Below are positions 4,065 through 17,907 of a stretch of DNA of 64,000 nucleotides, piece by piece. Position numbers and translations under genes: made by a program. Origin of the DNA: Yuukianura sp. NJ FZ-2021 (Eukaryota); assembly GCA_046563655.1 (NCBI GenBank), contig CM102283.1, forward strand, positions 9,300,001-9,364,000, given 5' to 3'. The notes beneath the pieces were generated by a model, which ran no database searches, had not been told where the DNA came from, and was given only the letters and a program-made list of their open reading frames with translations. Numbering within the stretch: the stretch's first letter is position 1; the number at the start of each line of letters is the position of its first letter.

Positions 4065-7000
4065 ATGTGGACCACTAAATTCCTGGTAAGACACGTAGCT
4101 CTAGTTTTTGTTAAAAAGCTTTAGTCTCACAAAAATTTTGCACTTTTTTTTCAAAATTTTTTCATAGGATTTCAATTTTGACAAAAGAAAAGTGTAGAAA
4201 TCATTTTGTTTTTTTAGGTTTTAGCCTATTTTGCACTGCTAATTTCTCTTGTGGCTTCTCACGAAACCTCTACGCAAAAACCCAAACGGAAACAAAGATA
4301 TCGAATAGTCAAAGTTTATACACGGAGATTCAAAAATAACGCAACTGCGCAGGCACAGCTTCTGTCTACTGCGCAGCCTCTGCAAGTTATCCCAGCCGAA
4401 AGATGGGCGTATCGTCAAAAACTAAAAACTTCAGAGGAAAAACCAGAACTTCCACGAGAAATGCTGCAAGGTGAAGCCGACTCTTCGCGGAATACGGTCA
4501 ACCTAGGTCAAATGGACCTCGAGAACTTTGATGTCGGAAAACTATTGGCTGCTGCTGGTCATGTGACTGGAGGTGATCCATTGGCACCAACAGTCATTCG
4601 ATTCTCGGCTCCTTCCGGCGACTCTCAACTGGATCCCGAGTATCTCTCAAAAATACTAAGAGAGCAGTTAGGCCAAGATGCTCAGTTTCAAATAATGCCA
4701 GCATCTGGAAATGCTGGGGACAACGCAAATTTTAGGCAGATCTACAACGCCAAACCATCACAACAATCAAGAGAAGAACAAAATTCAAAACAGCAAGGAC
4801 GGCAAAATCCACCTCCACAGCAAAATCTAACGCCACCCACACAGCAAAATTTAAATCCACTACCACTGCAAAATTCAAAACAACCGCCACCACAAAACTT
4901 AAAACACGCGCCAACGGCGCGTCCTGCTCCTCCAGTTCACCACTTTTCAAAAGAAAACACTTTTCCCGCCGTTTTGCAAAATGGAAAAGCAGTTGAAATT
5001 AAAAATCACGGGACTAACTATCAAGGTCACCAGGTAACAACACCAGCCAATCACATTCCAGCATTCTCCACAACAGCCAATCACAATTCAGCCTACTCCA
5101 CAACAGCCAATCACAATCCAGCATACTACTCCACTACCGAACTTCCCAAAACTCACTATTCAAAACCAACCAAGAAATATCCTCTGTATCCAAGAAATCC
5201 TACGGGGTCACAGGGCGCCAATTTCAGTGGATTTAAAATCCATACAGCAATTCCCACTCAACCTCCTAAAATTCAAAATACCGATTTTTTCGCGGGTCAC
5301 TCCAGCTTTACTTCAGCAGTAGAAGCTGCTGCTGCTGGATATTCAACACTCAGCCAAGAGATGACAGCACCCGGACTTGCACCAGCAGTTACAGGTCAAT
5401 ATCCAGACTGGAACAAAGGTCACGAAGGTCAACTGCCGACCACTTCTGATCAGCAAGGTAAAAAGTACTCTACAACTTTTGTAAGAGGATTTACAGATAA
5501 AGACGTCGGTCAACCACTCCCCCCGGGTCAACAAGGTCAAGTACCCTCGGGTCAACCACAGAAAGAGGCAAGTCAGCTGACCAAGGTCAAGGTTTTACCA
5601 GAAGGTAGACATTATAATCCCGGTCCTACACAGAAAGCTGAACCAAATTTAAAAATTTCCGCACCCAAGGCGCGTGGTGAGCCCACCGGAAGCGCGTCTT
5701 CTGCACAGGCATGGGAGGCTTCAGGCTACTACAAAGGTCAACAAAGTGAAGAAACTGGTCAGCAGGGGTCATCCGAGTCATGGGGAGGTCAACCCCATAG
5801 TGAGCATGCGCAGTCACATGATGCTGGAAAACTCAAATTCGGCCCATCAAAAATAGAATACGGTCCCCCGCCACCTAGCGGAGGCTACAGCGACTACCAA
5901 TCACAGTCACCCCCTACGGAATACGGCCCACCCCCACACCACCCAAAAATAACTAAAACAATTTACATAAACCTGCCACCCGAGGGAGCGTCGACCACCA
6001 GCACTCCGAAACCCTACAAACACCACAACCACCAGTACGTCCTTCCACAAAAACACTACAAAATAGTTTTCATTAAAGCTCCAACGGCCCCACCCACTGA
6101 AGAACCCGAAATTGAACTACCCCCACCCACCCCACAAACCAAAACAATCATTTACGTTTTACACAAAAAACCAGAGCCACCAAAAAAAGTTGTCATCACG
6201 GCCCCACCATCAACTGAGCCACCATCACCAGAAGTATTTTTCATTCAATACAATGACAAAGAGAAACAGAAATCGGAAGAAGCAAACAACGAAAGCGGGT
6301 GGAATAAACCGAAGAACGATGGCGGTTGGAGTAAGCCAGAAACACCAAAATGGGAACAGAAAAATGACGGTTGGAGCAAACCGGTACCGAAATCGGAAGA
6401 GCCGAAAAACCACGGCTGGAAATCGACGAGTTCAGAACAATCAAAACCGGAACAGAAAAACCACGGCTGGAAATCGACGAGCTCGGAGCAGTCGAAACCG
6501 GAACAGAAAAATACCGGTTGGGGCAAATACGAACCGACACAGAGTGTGCAATGGGATGACGTTCAAGACCAAGGTGGTTGGAGTAAACCAGAAACTACTG
6601 TAAACTCAGTCTGGGAAAAACAAAAAAGTCAAGTGTGGGGCAACCCGGTACCTTCTACCGGTACCAGTACCGGTTGGGATTCAGAACCGACGACACAAGA
6701 AGAAACGGATTCGGATTGGACCAAAGACGATAAAAACTCAGGTTCCGGTTGGAGTACCGGCACAGATTCGAAGTGGGAGGACCACAAAACATGGAGTACC
6801 GGACCAGATACCGGAACAAAATGGAACGAACCCAAAAATCAAGGCTGGTCGTCAAATTCAAAACCCGGTAAAGTTGAAAAACTTGAAGTTTCGCGGGAAA
6901 GTTCGAGTTGGGGTCGTCCGAAAATCAATAGTGAAGGTTGGTCACCGATTTTTAGCGGAAAAGAGCATCAAAACTATGACGACCATACACAGGGGTATCC

Positions 7001-7103
7001 AGAGGATGGTTACCAAGCGGCTGCTTCTGCGTCCGCACCCATGCGCGTCAGTGTTATCAAAACAGTAACCACCAAAATTTGTGCACACAACAAGCCGTGC
7101 TAA
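4065..7103 (+). CDS. Secreted Tweedle-family (DUF243) cuticular protein; 2 exons (4065-4085, 4218-7103)
   Basis: Exon 1 MWTTKFL|gtaag joins ttttag|VLAYFALLISLVAS in frame to give a signal peptide. The four Tweedle blocks lie at about 5949-6251: TKTIYINLPP, KHYKIVFIKAP, KTIIYVLHKKPE, PEVFFIQY. Confidence 0.85.
6404..6512 (+). repeat. 51-bp coding tandem duplication (KNHGWKSTSSEQSKPEQ x2)
   Basis: Two near-identical units are visible in both DNA and protein. Confidence 0.85.
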
Positions 7104-7727
7104 TCACAATTAACTTAATTTTGAAATAAAATTTGAAAACAAAATTAAAAATTTGAGTTTTAGTTTACAACTATTCCGGTATTAGTTTTAGAAAGTGTCG
7201 ACTCTAGTCGTTTGGTAAACATAAATTAATTAAATTACTTTACATTTTAATGCAAAAAAAAATATTAATATAGAAAAGGTTCCTTGGCACAGACAAATTG
7301 TGGAAGAAATGTGAAGTGTATGTGAACCAAAACTTATGAATTTCCGTGTAGCATTTTAAGATTTACGATGAAAATTTAAAGTTAAGGAAGCATTTCTTCC
7401 ATTTTTTTTTCTTTGCTCTGCTTGATCTACTTCTCATAAAATTAAGTTTTTACAAAGCAACAAGCGAAAACAAACAAAAAGAGAAAGTTTTTAACACGCA
7501 ACATTGCTAATAACTTGATACACTTTATATTATATTACTTCATTAAAAAAATTACGCCTAGGGCCGAATTACTAGTAATTAGTAATTAAACTTTTGTATA
7601 ATTTGTACCTCAAATAAAAAAAATATACTTGTTTCAAAAATTCCCAACAACACAATTTCAGATTATCTTTGATGATTTTTGATGAATTTGCAGAAATTTT
7701 GGTTTTTCTAGATCTATTGCTGGCTTT

Positions 7728-7741
7728 GTTGTCATAGCAAC
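7728..7741. promoter_or_regulatory. RFX X-box upstream of CASC1/DNAI7
   Basis: GTTGTCATAGCAAC fits the X-box consensus GTHNYY-AT-RRNAAC and lies about 190 bp upstream of the ATG of an axonemal gene. Confidence 0.7.
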
Positions 7742-7928
7742 ACCACGTGAAAAAAAAACTAAAAAATATAAAACAAATATACTAACTGAAATTGGCTGCG
7801 TGACAGCAAATTGTAGTTTTTGTAATAATTTTTTTTGTAAGTTTAGGAAGTCAATTTGTAGCTCATACTTTTAGTTAAGCTTTTTTTGTAATTGACACAA
7901 GAGTAGGAGAAAACTTGTAATTGGAAAG

Positions 7929-10900
7929 ATGCCGAAGAAGAAATCTCGCAGTAGAAGCAAATCCAAGCGACCAAAGGTAAGGCCAAAAGGTCAATGACCT
8001 TTGACCTGCACTATTCCTAGAAAATACACCTAAAATTGTGTTTTGTAGGGAAAACGGAGCAAATCCAAGCGCTCGAAATCAAAACTCCAAAAGAAGACGA
8101 GGAATGCCAAAGAAGTAATTTCCGAGACACAGCCAGAAGTAGATGAAGCTGAACCCACCTCGGAGGTCAATGACCCCAACACAGAGGTCATTGACCCCAC
8201 TGCCGAAGCCTCTGATACCAAACCTCCACCGGCTGAAACGAAAGGCGGCAAAAAGGGCAAAAAATCTAAAGACAAGAAGGCAAAGAAGTCAAAATCAAAA
8301 AGTGGTTCCAAATCCGTAAGTTTTCAATTACATCCAATAAAAAAACCCAAATCTTCAAAATTCTAAAAACCTTGCACTCTTTTTTTAGAAAGGGAAAAAA
8401 GACAAAAACAAATCAAAAAGTAAATCGGTAAGTTTATCACCACCATTACAATTCATAGCCACACGAAATTTCGGAAAACGTTGTTATTTGTTTCTATTTT
8501 CAAAAAATTTAGAAAGACAAGAAAAAAGACCGAGGTCGATCCAAATCCAAAAAGAAAGGCGGTCGCAGCAAATCTTCAAAATCTGGCAAAAAATCAAAAT
8601 CCGTAACCACAATACACCAAAATTCAAAATTTCAAAATTTACAAATTTGACTATTCTCAACGCCATTCAAATCTTTTTCGTTTCAGAAGTCTAAAGGAAA
8701 GGGAAAGTCAAAATCCAAGGTAATGATGTAGTAGGATCAATCAAATAAGGACTACCAGCATGATCCTTTAAAAAAAAAAACAGAAATTTTGAAAAACCAG
8801 ATTTTAAAAATGCTTTTTGAAAACGTGATTTTAAAAGTACTTTTGGAAAACTGCTTTTCAGGATGGCGGAAAAGGAAAAGGGAAGAAGGGGTCAAAGGGC
8901 AAAGGGAAAGGCGGGAAGAAAGGTCAAAAGGTCAAGGAGTTGACTAAAAAGCAGAAAGAAGCGGAAGAGGCCCGTATCGCTGCTGCCGCTCAAAAGCAAA
9001 CTGAGGCTGAAAATTCAAAACGACCAGAACACTTAGCTCAGTCTGCCGCCATTTTGTCAGCCAATGAAAAAGCTGTTTTTGCTTACAACCTAGCGGAACG
9101 TCTCAGAAAAGAGGTCGGTGACCTTTGACCTTTTGAAAATTGGCATAAACTGAAACTAAAACTTTAACTTTTTGATTAATTAAGTTCAATTAATTTGTTT
9201 TTAGTGGGAAGACTACATCGCTTGTCTTCCGACACCCAATGTCGCTAATCTGGTTGACGTCAATTCGTTCATGACAGAATGGATTTACGAACTGGGAGAA
9301 ACCCCTACGCTAGACGCCATTCTAGAATACTCCATCTTAGTTCTCCAGGTCATTCACCTTTTCAAATTTTGAAATTTCGAAATTTTGAAATTTCGAAATT
9401 TTGAAATGAAATTTTGAACTCCCCTTCCAGGTGATAGACGAACTGCAAGACCTCCTTCTACTTCCACCGGATAGCATCAAGATTGAGAATCTGAAAGAAC
9501 TTGGATTGGTAAAAAATCCACCGAAATTCAAAAATTTGTCAAAATTCAAAAGATTTCAAAATGCTCATTTTTTGGCAGATCTACCACGAAATGAAAGAAA
9601 AACAGAAATCTTTGATAGACGACGGAACGTACCACGTGATTCAGGATTTGACTGAATACTATGACCGAGAAGTGGGAGTATTTGAATACATTGAGCCCAG
9701 TAGTGACAACCAAATCACGCATGCCCTCTGGGGAAACCTCTTCGCCTCTCCTGACAACGATGGACACTCTTTTTCAAAATTCGGATTTCAATTTCAAATT
9801 CCCGAGTCACTACATTTTACTCCCGGAATTTACCGTGTTCTACACACAATGTACGACCACTACTCTGACACTTCCATGTCATTCTTCTCTCCAGTAGTCG
9901 AAACGGCTCTCAAACAATGTAAGAATTCCAAAAAGTTAAAAACAATTCAAATTACTTTCTTTAAAACTACTTTGGTTTTCAAAAAATTTCAGCAATCATC
10001 AACTGGATCGCCAAGAAAAACGAGGGCAAACCAGTTCCGCTGCAACTTGAATCTCCGCCAGACGATACCCTTGAAGCAGGCGACGTAAGACTTAAATTTT
10101 CACAAACAAAAAGAGGTTAAATTTTTAAAAAATCTTTAAATTTTGAACAAATTTGTATTCCGTGCCTTAAAATTTTGAACGAATTTGCATTCTCTGCTTT
10201 GAAATTTTGGACTTTGTTATCATTCGCTTAAAAATTTGAATGCAGGTGAAAAAGAAGAAGAAAAAGAAGAAAGGGAAGAAAAGTAAAAGCAAGAAGAAGA
10301 AATCGAAGAAAAAGAAGAAAAAAGGCGGAAAAGGTGATGGGCCTGACACTACGGACGGAGAGGAAGAATATGATGGTGAAGATGAAGGTGAAAGTGGCGG
10401 GAAAAAGAAGAAATCCAAGAAAAAGAGCAAGAAAAAGAGTAAGAAAAAGAAAAAGAAGAGCAAAAAGAAGAAGAAAGGGAAAAGCAAGAAGAAAAAGTCC
10501 AAATCCAAGGGAAAGAAGAAGAAGAAAAAGAAAGTGGGAGATGAGGAAAGTACGTTGACCCTTGACCTCGAGACTGACATTTGGGGGTCATCTTCTGAAT
10601 GGGAAGAAGAAGACGAAGATGAAGGAGAAGAGTATGAAACTTCTTCAGAGTGGGAAGACATTGAAGAAGAACACGAAGAACGGAAATCCGTTCCTCACTG
10701 GGCGGCAGTAAATTCAAAATTTTAAAAATCCTTCAAAAAAATTCTTCCCACTAAAAAATTTGAAGTCTAATTCTAATTGAACTTTGTCTTTTTGAAAAGA
10801 AACTCAAACAGCATCACCCAAAGCGCAAGGAAGGAAGTAAACGCAAGAAACTCACAATTTCGGAGGAAAGTGAAGCGGAATTTGAAGAAGAACAAGTTGA

Positions 10901-13900
10901 AAAGGTTTGACAAAAATTAAAAATCATATGAAACCAAGTTCAAAATTTTCTAAAAATTTGAAACTTTTCCAAAATTTTTGATCAGCCGAAACGCGTCAAA
11001 AGTCGTACTAGTACCACACACCACAAAAAACGGAAATCTACTAAGAATAAAGATCTGAATACGCTGGAATCGCTGAAATCTGTAATCAGCACAGCGATTC
11101 AAGGAATTGCCGAAAGCGATGCAAAGAAAGACCAGGATTTTATGCAAAGCGTCGGAACTGAACTGGTGGGGCTTACAATTCCAAAATCTCAAAAAATTTC
11201 CAAATTCAAAATTTTCAAAATTTTTTAAAATTTTGAACCTAGGCAAGACAACAACACCACAGAAAGAAAAGCAGCAGGAAAAGTGTGTTTTACGTTGGTG
11301 GTGAAGATGAGAGTAACAAAGATTCTGAATATTCTGATGGAGAATATGAAACAGAAGATGAAGGAGAGGATCAAAGCGATGCTGCAGCACTTGCAACTAC
11401 TGTAAGAATTTTCAAGTTTTTAAAAAATTTCCAATTTTTTAAATTTATACTTTCTAAATTTTGTGTTTTTGTTTAGAAGCCTCCAAAACCGCCAAAAGTC
11501 AAAGCAAAGAAGGGAAAGCGGAAGAAGGGCAAACGTCGCAAAAAGAAAGGAAAAAAGGGAAAGAAAAAGAAAAAAGTTCGTTTCGCTTCAGAAATTCTCT
11601 CAAACTTTTTGAAAAAAACAAACATTTTTTGAAAATATTAAAACTATGTGATAGCGCAAGCGTTCAGAAGAAATAGAAGGCCTTGGAGCCATCCTCAAAT
11701 CTTTGACCAGTTCCGCAACAAACGTGAGGGACAAAAAGAGAGGACGGTCAAAATCAGTAAGCAAACTTTTTAAACAATTTTTCCTTTTAAAAGTTGACAA
11801 CATTAACTTTCTACAAAACAGAAAAAAGGTAAAGCGAAAAAGTCAAAGTCAACGGACGGCAGTAGCGAGAGCTCAAAATCTAAAACCAAGGAAGAGTCGT
11901 CGTCGGTAATCTTTGACTTTACGGCAAAGTTAAAAAATCCAACAGTTAGCAAGCTCTCAAAATTCAATATGGTTTACAGAAGTCCAAATCAGCTAAAGCC
12001 AAAGCAGCAAAGGAAGACAAGTCAAAGGCAAAGGCAAAATCAGCTTCAAAGTCAAAGTCAAAAACAAAGTCAAAATCAAAGGACAAGAAACCCAAAACAT
12101 TGAAAAAGTCAAAATCCAAGAGTCGTGGACGTTCTAAAGCTGTAAAATTCTCAAACATAAGCAAAACCTTTTACACGCAACTTTAAACCATTTCCAAAAT
12201 TTCACAACTCATAATTTCAAAATTTCGATTTAGAAAAAGAAAGGATCGAAATCCAAATCCAAATCGCCTAAACGCTCCAAGTCCAAAACCAAAGGAAAGA
12301 AGAAATCTTCTAAAAAGAGCAAAAGTAAAAGTAAAAGCAAAAGTAAAAGTAAAAGCAAAGGTAAAAAGAAGGGCAAGAAATCGAAGAAAGGCAAGGTAAA
12401 TTAATTCCTGCTCAATATAAAAAAAAAATATTTTAGCAAAAAAAACGGTCTAATTAATATGATTTTTTAAAAATTTTGTTTTTGAAAAATAAAACTTTGT
12501 TTCTTTACAGAAGAAAGGTTCAAAAAAGAAAGGCAAAGGAAAGGGCAAGAAAGGAAAGTCAAAAAAGAAAAAAGCAAGTCCAAATTTTCACATTTTTCTT
12601 TCAAAATTTTCAACTTTAAGATCCTGTTTTACATAAACTTGTTTCTGCGTTTCAGAAAAAGGACAAAAGTGCATCAGCGGAAGGTTACAAACTTATTTCA
12701 CTTTCAAAAAGTACAAAATGCATTTTCAGTGAAAGCTGAAAAACTTCTTTTATTTCAGCACGTGACAAAGAAAAAATGGAAATAAAGCAACTGATTCCAA
12801 AACTTCATGAAAACGAGCTCAATTTAAGAAATTTTGCTGTGCAAGGAGGCGTTTACGACTTTCGATTCGTCCAAGTGCCACCACAACCAGTGGAAAAAGG
12901 CGAATGGGTTCTTCATATGAGTAAGTCACTTCAAAATTTTCAAAATCCACACTTTTTTTCTGAAATTACCTCCAAAAATTTTGAAAATTTCAGTTGAAGA
13001 TGAGCTTTGCATGAAAGACATTCCATTTTACGAGGAGTACATTGAGCCACCAATGCCACCAGAACCGGAAGCAGAAGCCCCACCACCAGGCACCACTGCT
13101 GGTGCAGACGGTGCCCCTGCAGGCCCACCCGTAGATGGAGACGAAGTCATTGCTCAATTTCTGGCAAAAGCTGAAGCCAAAGCGGCTAATAATGGAGTAG
13201 ACCCAGACGTCGATCCAACACTACCAAAGTACATTTCACAAAATTTTTCAAAAACTAAAAATTTTCAAAAAAATTTCAAAAATTTTCAGAATGCCAACTG
13301 TTCCTGATATGACATTGTATGAAACTCCAGAAGAGGCGGCAGAACGGAAAAAACAAGAATACGAGCAAAAACTGCAAGAACGTGAAGAGGAAAAGGCGGC
13401 TATGATGGAAAAACTCGTCAGTTTTAAAATCGAGTACGATTTTTATGATTCTTAAAATTTTTAAATTTGAAAGCAAACTCCTTGAACCTTTTTTCAAAAT
13501 TTCAGTTTGCCCAAAACTATGCTCTGGTTCGACCATCCTCCGACTCCGGTACGATGGGATCCGGAAGAACGAATTTGGAAACCGGAAGGATTTCAGGACA
13601 TAAAGTTTGACTACACGACAAACCGGTTTGAAGCTCGAACTCAAAGTTTCGGTACGATCGGCATCACGGCAAACAGAGTTACAAACTTTCCCTTCAAATG
13701 CTGGGAAATGATTCCGCTGGATGCCAACAAAAGCAAAATCACAGTCCACGGAGACAAAATTTCAGTCGATTTCTTGATTGAGGTAAGAAATATATCAAAG
13801 CAAACAAAAACGGCAAAGATGACAAGCAAAATTTTGCTTTTTATAGAATGACCTCGTTTGCTTGACCGACATCTACACAACTCCAGAGGAAATTGACAAA

Positions 13901-15406
13901 ATGCTTTTGAAACGCGGAAGGAAGAAGAGCAAAAAGTCAAAATCCAAAGGCAAAAGGTCAAAATCCAAGGGAAAGTCTAAATCAAAGGGTTCAAAATCAA
14001 AATCCCCAAAAGGGAAGTCAAAGTCAAAATCCAAAGGCAAAAAGTCAAAATCACGAGGCAAACTAAAAGGCAAAAGGTCAAAATCTGCTACTGACGTTCC
14101 TTCAAAAACGAATAGTATTAATTCAGATACTGATGATGACACAGCAAACGCAACGAAATCATCCAGATCTCTTAGCAGGAAGAAATCCAAAAAGAAGAAA
14201 TCAAAATCCAAAAAGAAATCCAAATCCAAGAAAAAATCGAAATCCAAAAAGAAAAAATCCAAGTCACGAAAAAAGAAAAAATCAAAATCTTTGTCAGTAA
14301 GAAGCTCCAAGTCAAAATCAAAATCAAGATCCTTGTCAGCAAAAGCATCAAAAGCAAAATCAAAGACAAAATCTTTGTCAGTATCTTCTTCAACTACGTC
14401 CAAAAAGTCAAAATCAAAGACAAAGACCAAGTCAAAATCAAAAAAGGGAAAATCCAAGTCAAAATCAAAGTCAAAATCTCGTTCCAAATCGCCTGGAGGG
14501 AGTAAAAAGAACAAACGCGGGAGAAGTAAGAGCAAAAAAGGCGGCAAAAAAGGCGACAGCCCGGGCAAAAATGTCGAAATTCCTCCTCCAAATATTTTCG
14601 TTTTTGATGAAATGAAGGCAGCTTTGCTCAACAAATCCATGAAAGTCCCTGCATTAATCAAGGTACAAATAGAATTTCAAAAACCGAAATCAAATTTCTA
14701 AACTTTCAAAATTTCATGTTAAAACACAGCTGATGAAGCAGCATGGACTGGACTTTTTTCCAGAACTGGACGCTTATGCATACCTTAAAGATGTGATGGT
14801 GAAGCGCTTTGATGTTGAAGACCACCTATACGAGTATACCTTAGAAACAATTTTTTTTAAAAAGCGAGGCAATTTTTAAAAGCGATTTTTGAAAAACTGA
14901 CCTTTGACCTTTAGATGTTTGGCGGTAGTTGCTCCCGCGTTTGAATTTAGTTGGAGCCGCTGGAACCTGGACAAATCCCGACGAGATACGATTGTTTTCC
15001 TCATGCGAGAAAAGAACTCTACGGTACAACTAGGTTCAAAATTTTGAAAAACTGTCCCCTGAAAAATTTCGAAATCTCTGAAAATTTTTTAGGAAGAGAA
15101 AAAAACTGTGATGACCAACTGGCGACAAAGTGCTTTTGTCACAGCTACTGAAAAGTCTAGCGATTTTTCATCTGAGCTGGTTCCGAATGTTGAGGTAAAA
15201 TAAAACAAAACCTTGAAAAAAAACTAACTTTTTCAAAAATATACTAAAGTTTTTCAAAATTTTTATAGTACTCAGCCGATTTGATAATTTTGGCCAATCG
15301 AATTGTCACACCACAAGTTCAAGAAGCTCTGCACCAAGCAACTCCTCCGTTTATCGAAACAACTCGGCAACTCATTTCAGCAATTCGCCCATTCTCCTAC
15401 TCCTAA
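7929..15406 (+). CDS. CASC1: CASC1/DNAI7 (CFAP94, IC97-like) axonemal dynein-associated protein with large Lys/Ser-rich inserts; more than 25 exons
   Basis: Conserved blocks: WEDYIACLPTPNVANLVDVNSFMTEW (~9205), LNLRNFAVQGGVYDFRFVQVPPQP (~12820), LWFDHPPTPVRWDPEERIWKPEG..NFPFKCWEMIP (13507-13782), and C-terminus TRQLISAIRPFSYS* (TAA 15404-15406). Start MPKKKSRSRSKSKRPK|gtaag. Some internal exon boundaries are uncertain. Confidence 0.85.
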
Positions 15407-15671
15407 ACTGCTCAAATATCTCAAAAACATTTGAAAATATCTGAAAATATCGAAAAAATATTTTCGAAAACACATTTTTCGAATCCATTTTTTAATAAAT
15501 CAAAATTATCTTGTGTAAAGTTACTTCAATACTAGACAAATTGAACTAATCGAGGGGTGGAGCTAACAGAACAAGTTTTTGAACTAACCGAGGGGTGGAG
15601 CTACCAGAGCGACAAGCTTTTTACGATTTACGACGTAAATTTTACGATGAGAAGCCGAAGCGAAGTTAATT

Positions 15672-15768
15672 GAAATTTAAATCTTACCGGGTTGAAGTAA
15701 ATTCAGGTCGCTTGTATCCACGGTGTTGAAATTCAAATCTTAGCGGGTTGAAGTAAATTCAGGTAGGT
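15672..15768. repeat. 56-bp-period tandem duplication covering the PIH1D1 stop codon
   Basis: gggttgaagtaaattcaggt occurs at 15689 and 15745 with similar flanks. Confidence 0.8.
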
Positions 15769-17229
15769 TGTGTCCATGATCTTTCCAGTTCTGGATCATC
15801 TGTTCAGTCATTGGAGCCAACTTGAGTTTAAGTGTGACCGTGTTTTTAGAGTAATCGAACTCAGGTTTGCACGAAACAATGTTAACTGGAGCCTTCATTT
15901 TGGATTTTCCCACGACACTGATCACTTCCAGTGTATCTCCTGCACAGTTGACAATGACAGAGGAATAGTCACATCTTCGCATGCCAGGCAGTTTGACAAC
16001 GGCAGTAGCCGAGGTGTCTCCGTCTCTGTCCAAGGTCATGTCGAGAGAAGGAAGAGCGGCAGTCGGATCTTCCGGTTTTTTGAAAACTTTTGTAGAAACT
16101 TCACGAACGACTGGTCCACTTGGAGGCTTTTTGGAAAGTGGAGATTCGTTGTCGATTTTAGGACGTTGCTGCTTGGCTGCTGGTGTATCTTTGTTCAGAG
16201 GATTAGTTGGGTTAATCTCTTGAATCAATGGTTTCCGCCCAGGAGCTGGCGGGGGTTGACTACTACCGGCAGTAGTACTGGAAGATACTTCGCGGATATT
16301 TGGTTTGTCACGGACAAACTGCGGCTCTGGCTTCCCATGACATGCTTTGTACTTCATAACGACGTAGTCGTTCTTCTCAAGTTGTACTTTGTGCTTCTCG
16401 TCCAGGGCTTCCATTGAAACGACGCAGAGGAATGTCCAGTACAAGTCTGAAGTCAGAATCTTCTGGTTGTAGAAATCGGTGTTGATGATGATATCGTATG
16501 CTTGACATTCAACACCGGCTGAAATGATATGCAAACCATACAGATTCTGAATTAGCACGTATTAAGTTTAGGTAAAGGTTAGTGTAAAGATTGATCCAGC
16601 AACCTTTGTCTTTGTCAACACGTTTAGCACCAATACTCATTGGAATCCGAATGTCATCCAGAGCATCGTCGTCCTCATTATGCAACAGATTTCGCAGTTG
16701 AGTATCAGAGAAGTAGATAGGCGGTTCCGGAACTTTACTGGAGTGGCAAATATTCACAAACACTTTCTGGTTAGAAATCTTGTCCTTCGTTTTGAAACAC
16801 TTTCCTAGATTTCAAAAAATCAGTGGAGTAACATGGATGGACGAAAGTAGGACGTATATCTGTAAGACTTCAACTTCCACTAAACTACTCTTACCCATCT
16901 CAGGAATAATGAATTTGCATTGCTTAGCATCCCTTGCTTGACTTGGAGTGAAGATATGATCCATGTCACTGTCTTTTTCCAAAGCCTAAAAGTATAAATA
17001 GGAGATTAATAAGTAGCAACGTTAAGGTTATAGCAAAAAGTCCCTCTCCTACCTCAGCATCAATCGACGGTCCTTCGTATCCAACTTTACGCAAGGTCTC
17101 GTCATCGAGCAGCAGTGTTTTTCTGAATAGGTTGTCATCGGCTTCCAAGAATATCTTATTGTCTCCTCCAGCTCCCTTACTACCCCGTTCAGGGAACGAC
17201 GTTGAGGTCGCGTTCTTAGACTTAGACAT
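15740..17229 (-). CDS. PIH1D1: PIH1 domain-containing protein (PIH1D1/Nop17-like R2TP co-chaperone), about 4 coding exons
   Basis: PIH-N motifs KVFVNICHSSKVPEPP, IRIPMSIG and YDIIINTDFY, plus a C-terminal CS-like beta region (VVKLPG..PEFDYSKNTVTLKL). Probable start MSKSKN at 17229. The paralog assignment is inferred. Confidence 0.75.
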
Positions 17230-17907
17230 GGTCCCGTTCCTTTCCTTCCAGCGGTGACTCGTATCAGTAATACCTGAAAAATCGTATGAAATCAAGCATA
17301 GCTCAAATACCCATATGATATCAAACTACGAAAAGACGGAATCAGTACTCTAAATATATTGCATTGTTAGGTCGATAATCCGATTAAGATGAAAAGTGTT
17401 ACCTTCGTTAAACCCTGATGGATGAATGAATGAATTAACGAACAAATGAGCAACGACCACGATGTCCAAACGTTCGCCTTCCGAGAATCCAATGCCAGCA
17501 CCAATTAATTAACTCCAATTAAACGTTTAAAAACGTTTTCGTTTCCGGTTTCCTATTTTTCTCTTCTTTTGTTTTCATCCAAGTTTGAATGAGTTCCCGC
17601 AAAATTGAATTTGCAAAAAAAAAATTAAGGGATTGTACGTTTGGCGCCCCAACGATCTTGGGGCAAATTGTGATGCGATGATGCAAAATTGAAAACGCGG
17701 GAAATTCAAAATTCTTTTGCTTTTGAATTTTTCAATTTGATTTTTTTCGGAAAATCTGCCCGCCTAATTTTTGTCATTGCTTTTTTGTAAACTTTGAAGT
17801 TAAAAACAGACATCAATCGTTTTCTAATTCTAACAGGCTACCAGGAGGTCAAAGATCAAGCAGGCATAAGCGTAAAACAGCATTGTAGAGCTTAATTAAG
17901 TTCAGAT

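What the first reader, a model, noticed from the sequence alone, without database searches (positions are those of the whole stretch)
7929..14662. Axonemal dynein subunit CASC1/DNAI7 inflated by protamine-like Lys/Ser tracts
Seen: three large low-complexity blocks interrupt an otherwise intact CASC1, at the N-terminus (7929-8940), internally (~10246-12683) and inside the C-terminal domain (~13915-14570). They consist of KSKSKSK/KKKK runs alternating with acidic runs, spread over many small exons with proper splice sites. Established: IC97/CASC1 associates with inner-arm dynein and tubulin, and such K/S/R composition typifies sperm H1/protamine-like proteins. Inference: a polycationic, phospho-switchable tether for polyglutamylated tubulin tails, or a chimeric flagellar/chromatin protein. 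I know of no CASC1 with this architecture.
Basis: partly seen in the sequence, partly recalled or inferred. Interest (0 to 1): 0.7.

Follow-up and report, generated by a model that had tools for sequence, protein, structure and literature searches.

The report
Springtail sperm dynein subunit, lysine-inflated
A springtail-type genome encodes a sperm-tail motor subunit more than twice its usual length because of long, positively charged lysine/serine stretches, two of which other springtails share, and which probably grip the negatively charged microtubules of the tail rather than package DNA.

Summary
A 30-exon model (7929-15406, +) gives an intact 1,691-aa CASC1/DNAI7 (IC97) protein with 23% Lys and net charge +223, and an X-box motif 201 nt upstream.

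It is not unique. The N-terminal and middle K/S blocks recur in related springtail-clade proteins: Folsomia XP_035703151.1 (annotated 'neurofilament heavy polypeptide-like'), an intronless 1,329-aa ORF whose K/S codons are under purifying selection (13 synonymous, 1 replacement change), and genomic loci. None of 37 non-springtail homologs exceeds 36 such residues, against 777 here. Block 3, about 240 aa in a predicted loop that spans 59-64 aa in 24 of 24 measured homologs, was seen only in this gene. A second CASC1 in this genome lacks the blocks.

The protamine reading fails: Arg is 4-6% and there is no winged helix. The tracts resemble the Lys-rich loops of DRC11/DRC4, which published work links to polyglutamylated tubulin. 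Best reading (about 55%): polycationic tails on dynein f that act as an electrostatic tether or brake. No transcript or binding data exist for this gene. Earlier scan notes showed no look-alike.

The parts
7728..7741 (.). Palindromic X-box-like (RFX) motif, 201 nt upstream of the ATG
   Evidence: Matches a recalled X-box consensus; 4 sites (8 strand matches) in the window against 0.56 matches expected; a similar palindrome lies 250 nt upstream of the assumed ATG in the closest relative L005; none within 500 nt in L008 or L009
7929..8719 (+). Exons 1-5 (7929-7976, 8049-8315, 8389-8427, 8513-8602, 8687-8719): K/S block 1, with an acidic/Pro patch in exon 2; all introns phase 0
8862..9113 (+). 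Exon 6: K/G-rich end of block 1 (to about 8940), then the helical N-terminal part of CASC1
   Evidence: matches homologs from about aa 212
9205..10084 (+). Exons 7-10 (9205-9348, 9431-9508, 9579-9918, 9993-10084): Casc1_N core
   Evidence: Pfam PF15927; exon 9 is 68% identical to L005; same intron positions in the C8 paralog for exons 8-9
10246..12683 (+). Exons 11-21 (10246-10707, 10800-10904, 10986-11165, 11243-11401, 11477-11575, 11655-11756, 11822-11905, 11980-12141, 12234-12395, 12511-12573, 12656-12683): block 2, alternating Lys-rich and acidic runs, then a 233-aa basic tail (net +102). Exons 11-20 are phase 0-0; GC donor at 12574
   Evidence: fills the variable linker that is 36-271 aa in 15 measured non-springtail homologs
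12759..13782 (+). Exons 22-25 (12759-12920, 12994-13228, 13290-13433, 13506-13782): conserved middle motif, Pro/Ala/acidic spacer, start of Casc1_C
   Evidence: Pfam PF12366; blast to homologs
13847..14662 (+). Exon 26 (816 nt): conserved ends enclosing block 3 (about 13910-14575), an in-frame insertion of about 240 aa
   Evidence: maps to the loop between strand 257-264 and helix 270-276 of the model of the relative L007
14730..15406 (+). Exons 27-30 (14730-14833, 14915-15023, 15093-15194, 15269-15406): rest of the C-terminal domain and stop codon
   Evidence: matches homologs to their last residues

Best explanation
This is an intact, diverged paralog of the inner-arm dynein f (I1) subunit IC97/CASC1/DNAI7 in a springtail-type genome. 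Its folded core is kept, while three flexible sites (N-terminus, central linker, one loop of the C-terminal domain) carry long Lys/Ser/Gly-rich tails. SHOWN here: gene structure, intact core, insertion sites, spread of blocks 1-2 in the springtail clade, purifying selection on K/S codons in a relative, uniqueness of block 3 among the homologs examined. INFERRED: the blocks are disordered; the protein docks on the IC-LC tower of dynein f in the sperm flagellum as its homologs do; its tails (about +270 net in the three blocks) reach acidic, polyglutamylated tubulin tails and form a sliding-tolerant electrostatic tether or brake, as the Lys-rich loops of DRC2/4/11 do. SPECULATIVE: tether strength is tuned by including or skipping the phase-0 exons, by Ser phosphorylation and by the built-in acidic runs.
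For: Intact 1,691-aa frame. The core fold of the relative L007 matches DNAI7/IC97 chains in five axoneme structures (Foldseek E 2.5e-28 to 3e-14; sequence matches). Blocks 1-2 lie in one intronless ORF in L006/L007; between those two, basic K/S codons show 13 synonymous and 1 replacement change over 372 codons (pN/pS 0.02), other low-complexity codons 9 and 4, core 20 and 0. Linker net charge is +41 to +122 in 4 of 5 springtail-clade proteins, against -38 to +3 in 15 measured of 30 others. In the genome scans for K/S and K/G codon patterns, the only hit outside this gene that I could place in a recognisable gene with that reading was DRC11/IQCA1 (E 5.6e-31 to human DRC11). Passages of PMC10266980 say DRC2, DRC4 and DRC11 point at least 60 lysines at the neighbouring doublet; passages of PMC5555654 say adding 23 Lys/Arg to DRC4 slows swimming in a polyglutamylation-dependent way. 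Drosophila IC97 (CG15373) is listed as testis only (passages of PMC6367277). X-box motif upstream.
Against: No expression, localisation or binding data for this gene. The intronless ORF belongs to another branch (45% core identity to the window copy), so it does not show that these exons are spliced in. The passages read place IC97 on the LC tower and do not say that its loops face a doublet. The Kubo and Oda result implies so much charge could jam sliding. Allacma has only a 55-residue basic patch and a neutral linker, and the C8 paralog shows no K/S-rich window, so the tails are dispensable for some copies. A beetle protein (P0041) also has a long Lys-rich N-terminus (484 aa, net +30), so basic extensions are not exclusive to springtails. 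The DRC11 comparison rests on composition and a few tight patterns; the KSKSKSK DNA pattern was no more frequent than its reversed control (12 against 15).
Confidence: 0.55

Rival explanations
1. Tolerated expansion: the three sites are permissive loops that grew by codon slippage and exon duplication; only frame and rough composition are maintained and the tails have no specific partner.
For: Insert length and charge vary widely in the clade (linker 290-614 aa, net 0 to +122); block 3 was seen in one gene only; tandem-repeat periods of 6-42 nt lie in the blocks; the central linker is variable in all homologs.
Against: pN/pS 0.02 on basic K/S codons between L006 and L007; the bias to Lys/Ser/Gly recurs on two separate branches at about 45% core identity; 42 Lys-Ser pairs in block 3 use 7 different hexamers.
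Confidence: 0.18
2. The tails act off the doublet surface: in cytoplasmic pre-assembly, condensates or transport of dynein f, or by binding acidic non-tubulin partners or their own acidic runs.
For: Block 2 alternates basic and acidic runs, a pattern also seen in L005, L007, L008 and Folsomia; that such patterning favours self-association is recalled knowledge.
Against: Blocks 1 and 3 and the last 233 aa of block 2 are almost purely basic and cannot be neutralised by the protein itself (net +223 overall).
Confidence: 0.13
3. Protamine-like or chimeric flagellar/chromatin protein: the basic tracts, perhaps cut out as peptides, condense sperm DNA.
For: Likely sperm expression; very basic, Ser-rich tracts; excised basic peptides are described for PL proteins (passages of PMC13148410).
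Against: Arg only 4-6%; no winged-helix/linker-histone Pfam match on the exons scanned or on the full-length relatives; the tracts sit inside a conserved dynein subunit, one in the middle of a folded domain; the PL proteins in that paper are about 216 aa.
Confidence: 0.07
4. Mis-prediction: most K/S exons are skipped or belong to something else, and the mature protein is near-normal.
For: 14 of 14 internal block 1-2 exons are phase 0-0 and so skippable, against 4 of 12 core exons; some splice sites are weak; no reads support this assembly or its splicing.
Against: Block 3 cannot be skipped without losing conserved residues and has no good cryptic intron; exons 1, 6 and 21 fuse K/S sequence to the start codon or the core; intronless relatives contain blocks 1-2; shuffle tests.
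Confidence: 0.07

Closest known systems
IC97 / CASC1 / DNAI7 (CFAP94), inner dynein arm f intermediate chain (PDB 8j07_k3 human, 9fqr_Hn bovine, 8glv_AE Chlamydomonas)
   Same: Casc1_N and Casc1_C domains in order, complete to the C-terminus; same fold for the relative's C-terminal half
   Different: 1,691 aa against about 700-800; net +223 against -59 to +11 in the 37 non-springtail rows; an insertion of about 240 aa where 24 of 24 measured homologs span 59-64 aa
Folsomia candida XP_035703151.1 ('neurofilament heavy polypeptide-like') and Allacma fusca CAG7823625.1
   Same: Same clade (bootstrap 100). Folsomia has K/S blocks 1 and 2 (308 basic low-complexity residues), Allacma a 55-residue patch
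   Different: About 43% core identity; the Folsomia model stops before the C-terminal domain; Allacma lacks blocks 1 and 3
Lys-rich loops of N-DRC subunits DRC2, DRC4, DRC11/IQCA1
   Same: Flexible Lys/Gly-rich tracts on an axonemal regulator; this genome's DRC11 carries the same kind of tract
   Different: No homology; different complex; at least 60 lysines on three subunits (PMC10266980 passage) against 388 lysines in this one chain; more Ser-rich
Protamine-like (PL) sperm nuclear basic proteins / histone H1 tails
   Same: Very basic, Ser-rich low-complexity tracts
   Different: No winged-helix domain found, low Arg, large size, embedded in a dynein subunit

Membership tests
IC97/CASC1/DNAI7 | Casc1_N domain (PF15927) | tested here: met
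   Single exons hit at E 2e-5 and 4e-3, below the whole-protein cut-off; full-length relative L007 scores 70.9 bits against a cut-off of 28.2; exon 9 finds named DNAI7 proteins
IC97/CASC1/DNAI7 | Casc1_C domain (PF12366), intact to the C-terminus | tested here: met
   27.8 bits against a cut-off of 26.2 on exon 25; aa 1529-1691 align to the end of Macrobrachium DNAI7
IC97/CASC1/DNAI7 | Fold matches solved DNAI7/IC97 | tested here: met
   Tested on the relative L007 (aa 890-1329), not on the window protein: pLDDT 82, top five Foldseek hits are axonemal chains
IC97/CASC1/DNAI7 | Bound to the IC-LC tower of dynein f in the axoneme | not testable with these tools
   Needs proteomics or cryo-ET; two copies exist in this genome and either or both may serve
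Protamine-like (PL) SNBP | Winged-helix (H1-type) globular domain (defining per PMC13148410 passage) | tested here: not met
   No such Pfam match on 10 frames from the gene scanned (blocks 1-2 only partly covered) or on three full-length relatives
Protamine-like (PL) SNBP | Arg- and Lys-rich basic stretch in a short protein | tested here: not met
   Lys 34-39% but Arg 3.7-5.8% in the blocks; protein 1,691 aa
Protamine-like (PL) SNBP | Present in sperm chromatin, binds DNA | not testable with these tools
   No expression or localisation data
N-DRC-type electrostatic tubulin link (works like, not a member) | Flexible Lys-rich region on an axonemal complex | tested here: met
   Composition and insertion at variable or loop sites; disorder itself is inferred from composition
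N-DRC-type electrostatic tubulin link (works like, not a member) | Faces a doublet and depends on polyglutamylation | not testable with these tools
   Shown for DRC4 in PMC5555654 (passages); not for any IC97 in what I read

The most novel reading that the evidence does not exclude
Springtails have turned IC97/DNAI7 into a second, nexin-like electrostatic link: dynein f carries several hundred lysines that grip polyglutamylated tubulin and brake or clamp doublet sliding, with the charge set by cassette micro-exons and Ser phosphorylation. This paralog is the extreme form, with a third tail inserted into the folded domain. It could hold stored sperm quiet until activation (that springtail sperm are stored coiled in spermatophores is recalled, not from a call).
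Probability: 0.25. Interest if true: 0.72.

Novelty: new variant of a known kind. Interest (0 to 1): 0.48.

Why it matters
The molecular role of IC97/DNAI7 is described as unknown or poorly understood (passages of PMC10886578 and PMC11656769). In Chlamydomonas, 23 added basic residues on DRC4 slow the flagellum (PMC5555654 passages). A natural IC97 with about +270 extra charge, beside a plain paralog in the same genome and a graded series in related species (linker net 0 to +122), is a ready comparison for asking whether dynein f regulates sliding through electrostatic contact with tubulin tails. It also marks three sites of IC97 that tolerate large insertions and corrects a database name. If the tails are only tolerated expansions, it is a curiosity of springtail sperm proteins.

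Tried and rejected
RNA evidence: no RNA holder listed for 7900-15450, so no reads were laid; this says nothing about expression. Exon 25 alone found no homolog among 16 candidates. The atlas search with exon 26 gave no usable hit. The top hit (P0001) is a tandem-repeat sequence matching 16 residues and was ignored. My first exon list had boundary errors that gave 25 stops; corrected. 'Genome-wide K/S inflation' is not supported. The four patterns hit outside this gene at: 0 places; 9 places at 8 loci; 1 place; 4 places. Of the 8 loci, 1 is DRC11; in 5 the motif lies in short frames of 56-81 aa with no recognisable gene; in 2 it was in no frame of 50 aa or more. Of the 4 places, 3 are simple A-rich repeats that I did not open and 1 lies in an 80-aa frame. 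These tight patterns miss looser tracts, and other dynein f subunits were not examined. A protein search with exon 19 found only itself. A cryptic intron removing block 3 was rejected. A last search for shorter relatives gave 6 fragments and no named species. L009 and the C8 paralog were not modelled exon by exon: their cores come from tblastn segments, the 5.4-kb middle of the C8 gene is unresolved, and K/S exons under 30 aa there could be missed. No complex prediction was run: binding of disordered tails to modified tubulin is outside its reach.
Full report
Gene structure. Reading 6000-17000 and listing splice sites gave a 30-exon model from 7929 to 15406 on the + strand: 5,076 nt, 1,691 aa, one stop at the end, introns of 61-161 nt, 28 of 29 with GT and one with GC. 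The protein is 22.9% Lys and 13.0% Ser, net +223, pI 10.0. Pfam finds Casc1_N and Casc1_C on core exons. Blast of the model against full-length DNAI7 proteins covers the core in order to the last residue. All 14 internal exons of blocks 1-2 (exons 2-5, 11-20) are phase 0-0, against 4 of 12 core exons. Block 3 lies within exon 26, between conserved ends.

Is it real coding sequence? In block 3 and exon 11 only the K/S frame of the three + frames is open; 5 of 2000 and 1 of 2000 shuffles were open in that frame. No credible cryptic intron removes block 3. No sequencing run was listed, so splicing of this gene and the assembly of block 3 are untested.

Relatives. A metagenome scan confirmed 5 of 120 candidate stretches. 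L005 is the closest (68% on exon 9). It has what reads as the same upstream neighbour gene, a short K/S/G N-terminus and the start of block 2 with the same basic-acidic alternation; its contig ends before block 3. L006 and L007 (98.4% identical DNA) each hold a complete, intronless ORF of 1,326 and 1,329 aa with blocks 1 and 2 but not 3. Their relatives have introns, so they are spliced transcripts or a processed copy; which, I could not tell. Between them, 372 basic K/S codons show 13 synonymous and 1 replacement change, 252 other low-complexity codons 9 and 4, and 697 core codons 20 and 0; 8 codons round an indel were left out. L008 models as 22 exons and 1,253 aa with phase-0 K/S micro-exons of 15-75 nt; L009 shows K/S-rich frames in the linker. 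A protein search with the L007 C-terminal part returned 31 proteins of 730-2,326 aa from 8,000 scored candidates, among them Folsomia candida XP_035703151.1, named 'neurofilament heavy polypeptide-like', which has Casc1_N and blocks 1-2, and Allacma fusca CAG7823625.1, which has a short K/S patch.

How unusual. Residues in basic low-complexity windows: window 777, L007 372, Folsomia 308, Allacma 55. Of 37 other full-length homologs, 34 have none and 3 have 30-36. Between anchor motifs the central linker is 602, 614, 566, 405 and 290 aa (net +122, +82, +71, +41, 0) in the five springtail-clade proteins, and 36-271 aa (net -38 to +3) in 15 of 30 others; the anchors failed in the other 15. The segment holding block 3 is 301 aa here and 59-64 aa in 24 of 34 homologs; anchors failed in 10. 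One counter-example: the beetle protein P0041 has a 484-aa Lys-rich N-terminus (net +30), without K/S repeats.

Paralog and tree. Two searches found a second CASC1 on contig C8 and no third. It has the core segments in order, shares intron positions where checked, has a short exon where block 3 lies, and shows no 30-aa window with 18 or more K/S/R in six frames. Its middle was not fully modelled. A tree of 23 rows on 533 columns projected on L007 (five rows cover only 111-265 columns) groups 11 rows, including Folsomia, Allacma, L005, L007-L009, the window gene and the C8 copy, apart from insects, crustaceans and others (bootstrap 100). Within them, window+L005 (98) and L007+L008+L009+Folsomia+P0003 (99) are separate branches and the deeper order is unresolved (48, 37). 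The genome is therefore springtail-type by inference, as earlier scan notes also concluded. Blocks 1-2 are either ancestral in the clade and lost or reduced in C8 and Allacma, or expanded twice; I did not run a test that decides this.

Structure. The L007 C-terminal 440 aa fold at pLDDT 82 and match DNAI7/IC97-type chains in five axoneme structures. By the aligned flanks (read by eye, where the automatic alignment spread the insert), block 3 enters the loop between strand 257-264 and helix 270-276 of that model, where the human and bovine chains also show small gaps. The fold can plausibly survive the insertion; the window protein itself was not folded.

Mechanism. Passages of PMC10266980 place IC97 on the LC tower of dynein f and say DRC2, DRC4 and DRC11 direct at least 60 lysines at the neighbouring doublet, probably binding polyglutamate. 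Passages of PMC5555654 report that lowering or raising the charge on DRC4 reduces motility and that the effect of 23 added Lys/Arg depends on polyglutamylation. That IC97 interacts with tubulin I saw only as the title of Wirschell 2009 in reference lists. Passages of PMC6367277 list Drosophila IC97 as testis only and dynein f as absent from chordotonal neurons; passages of PMC7140630 say springtail sperm axonemes lack accessory tubules. In this genome the only other recognisable gene hit by my K/S and K/G patterns is DRC11. An X-box-like palindrome lies 201 nt upstream, and a similar one in L005; the consensus is recalled. Together these favour an axonemal, tubulin-gripping role (about 0.55) over tolerated expansion (0.18), off-doublet roles (0.13), a chromatin role (0.07) or mis-prediction (0.07). 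The winged-helix domain that defines PL proteins (passages of PMC13148410) was not found.

Literature and novelty. Searches for CASC1/IC97/dynein, DNAI7 with lysine-rich, springtail with CASC1/DNAI7/axonemal dynein and Collembola sperm axoneme listed no paper describing a lysine-inflated IC97. I saw the top 9-25 listings of each; the library lacks most subscription journals, and I opened no supplements. For PMC11656769 I read the abstract, introduction and passages; for PMC10886578, passages. The scan's own index showed no look-alike.

Verdict. A real, intact and so far undescribed variant of a known axonemal subunit. Two of the three blocks are a trait of a springtail clade, one was seen only in this gene, and the protamine reading should be dropped. 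Interest 0.48; 0.72 if the electrostatic brake is shown.

Noticed in passing
window 4218-7103 (+): Long single ORF with a DUF243 domain (Pfam E 2e-16; that DUF243 marks Tweedle-type cuticle proteins is recalled) and Trp/Gly/Ser-rich repeats; what reads as the same gene lies upstream of the CASC1 relative in L005 (by eye)
   Followed up: partly
window about 15740-17325 (-): PIH1-domain gene lying tail to tail with CASC1 (Pfam; best solved matches are PIH1D1); PIH proteins act in dynein pre-assembly, but which PIH paralog this is was not settled
   Followed up: partly
window 43979, 54376, 63676: Three more X-box-like palindromes, the last identical to the one before CASC1; no clear gene among frames of 70 aa or more round 54376
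   Followed up: partly
L023 / L016 (G000:C6 about 477700-480700): DRC11/IQCA1 with long Lys/Gly-rich loops and a Lys/Ser/Gly-rich C-terminus; the loop before the AAA domain is a few residues longer than in human DRC11
   Followed up: partly
L003:2776 to L004:2115 (G000:C8): Second CASC1 copy with a Pro/Thr/Ser-rich candidate exon and short exons in the central linker instead of K/S blocks
   Followed up: partly
P0041 (Hypothenemus hampei); P0049, P0050 (mosquitoes): [quoted passage not shown]
   Followed up: no
L018 (G000:C6 about 6303800-6306800): Open frame of over 1,000 aa that reads like a polyketide or fatty-acid synthase (by eye)
   Followed up: no
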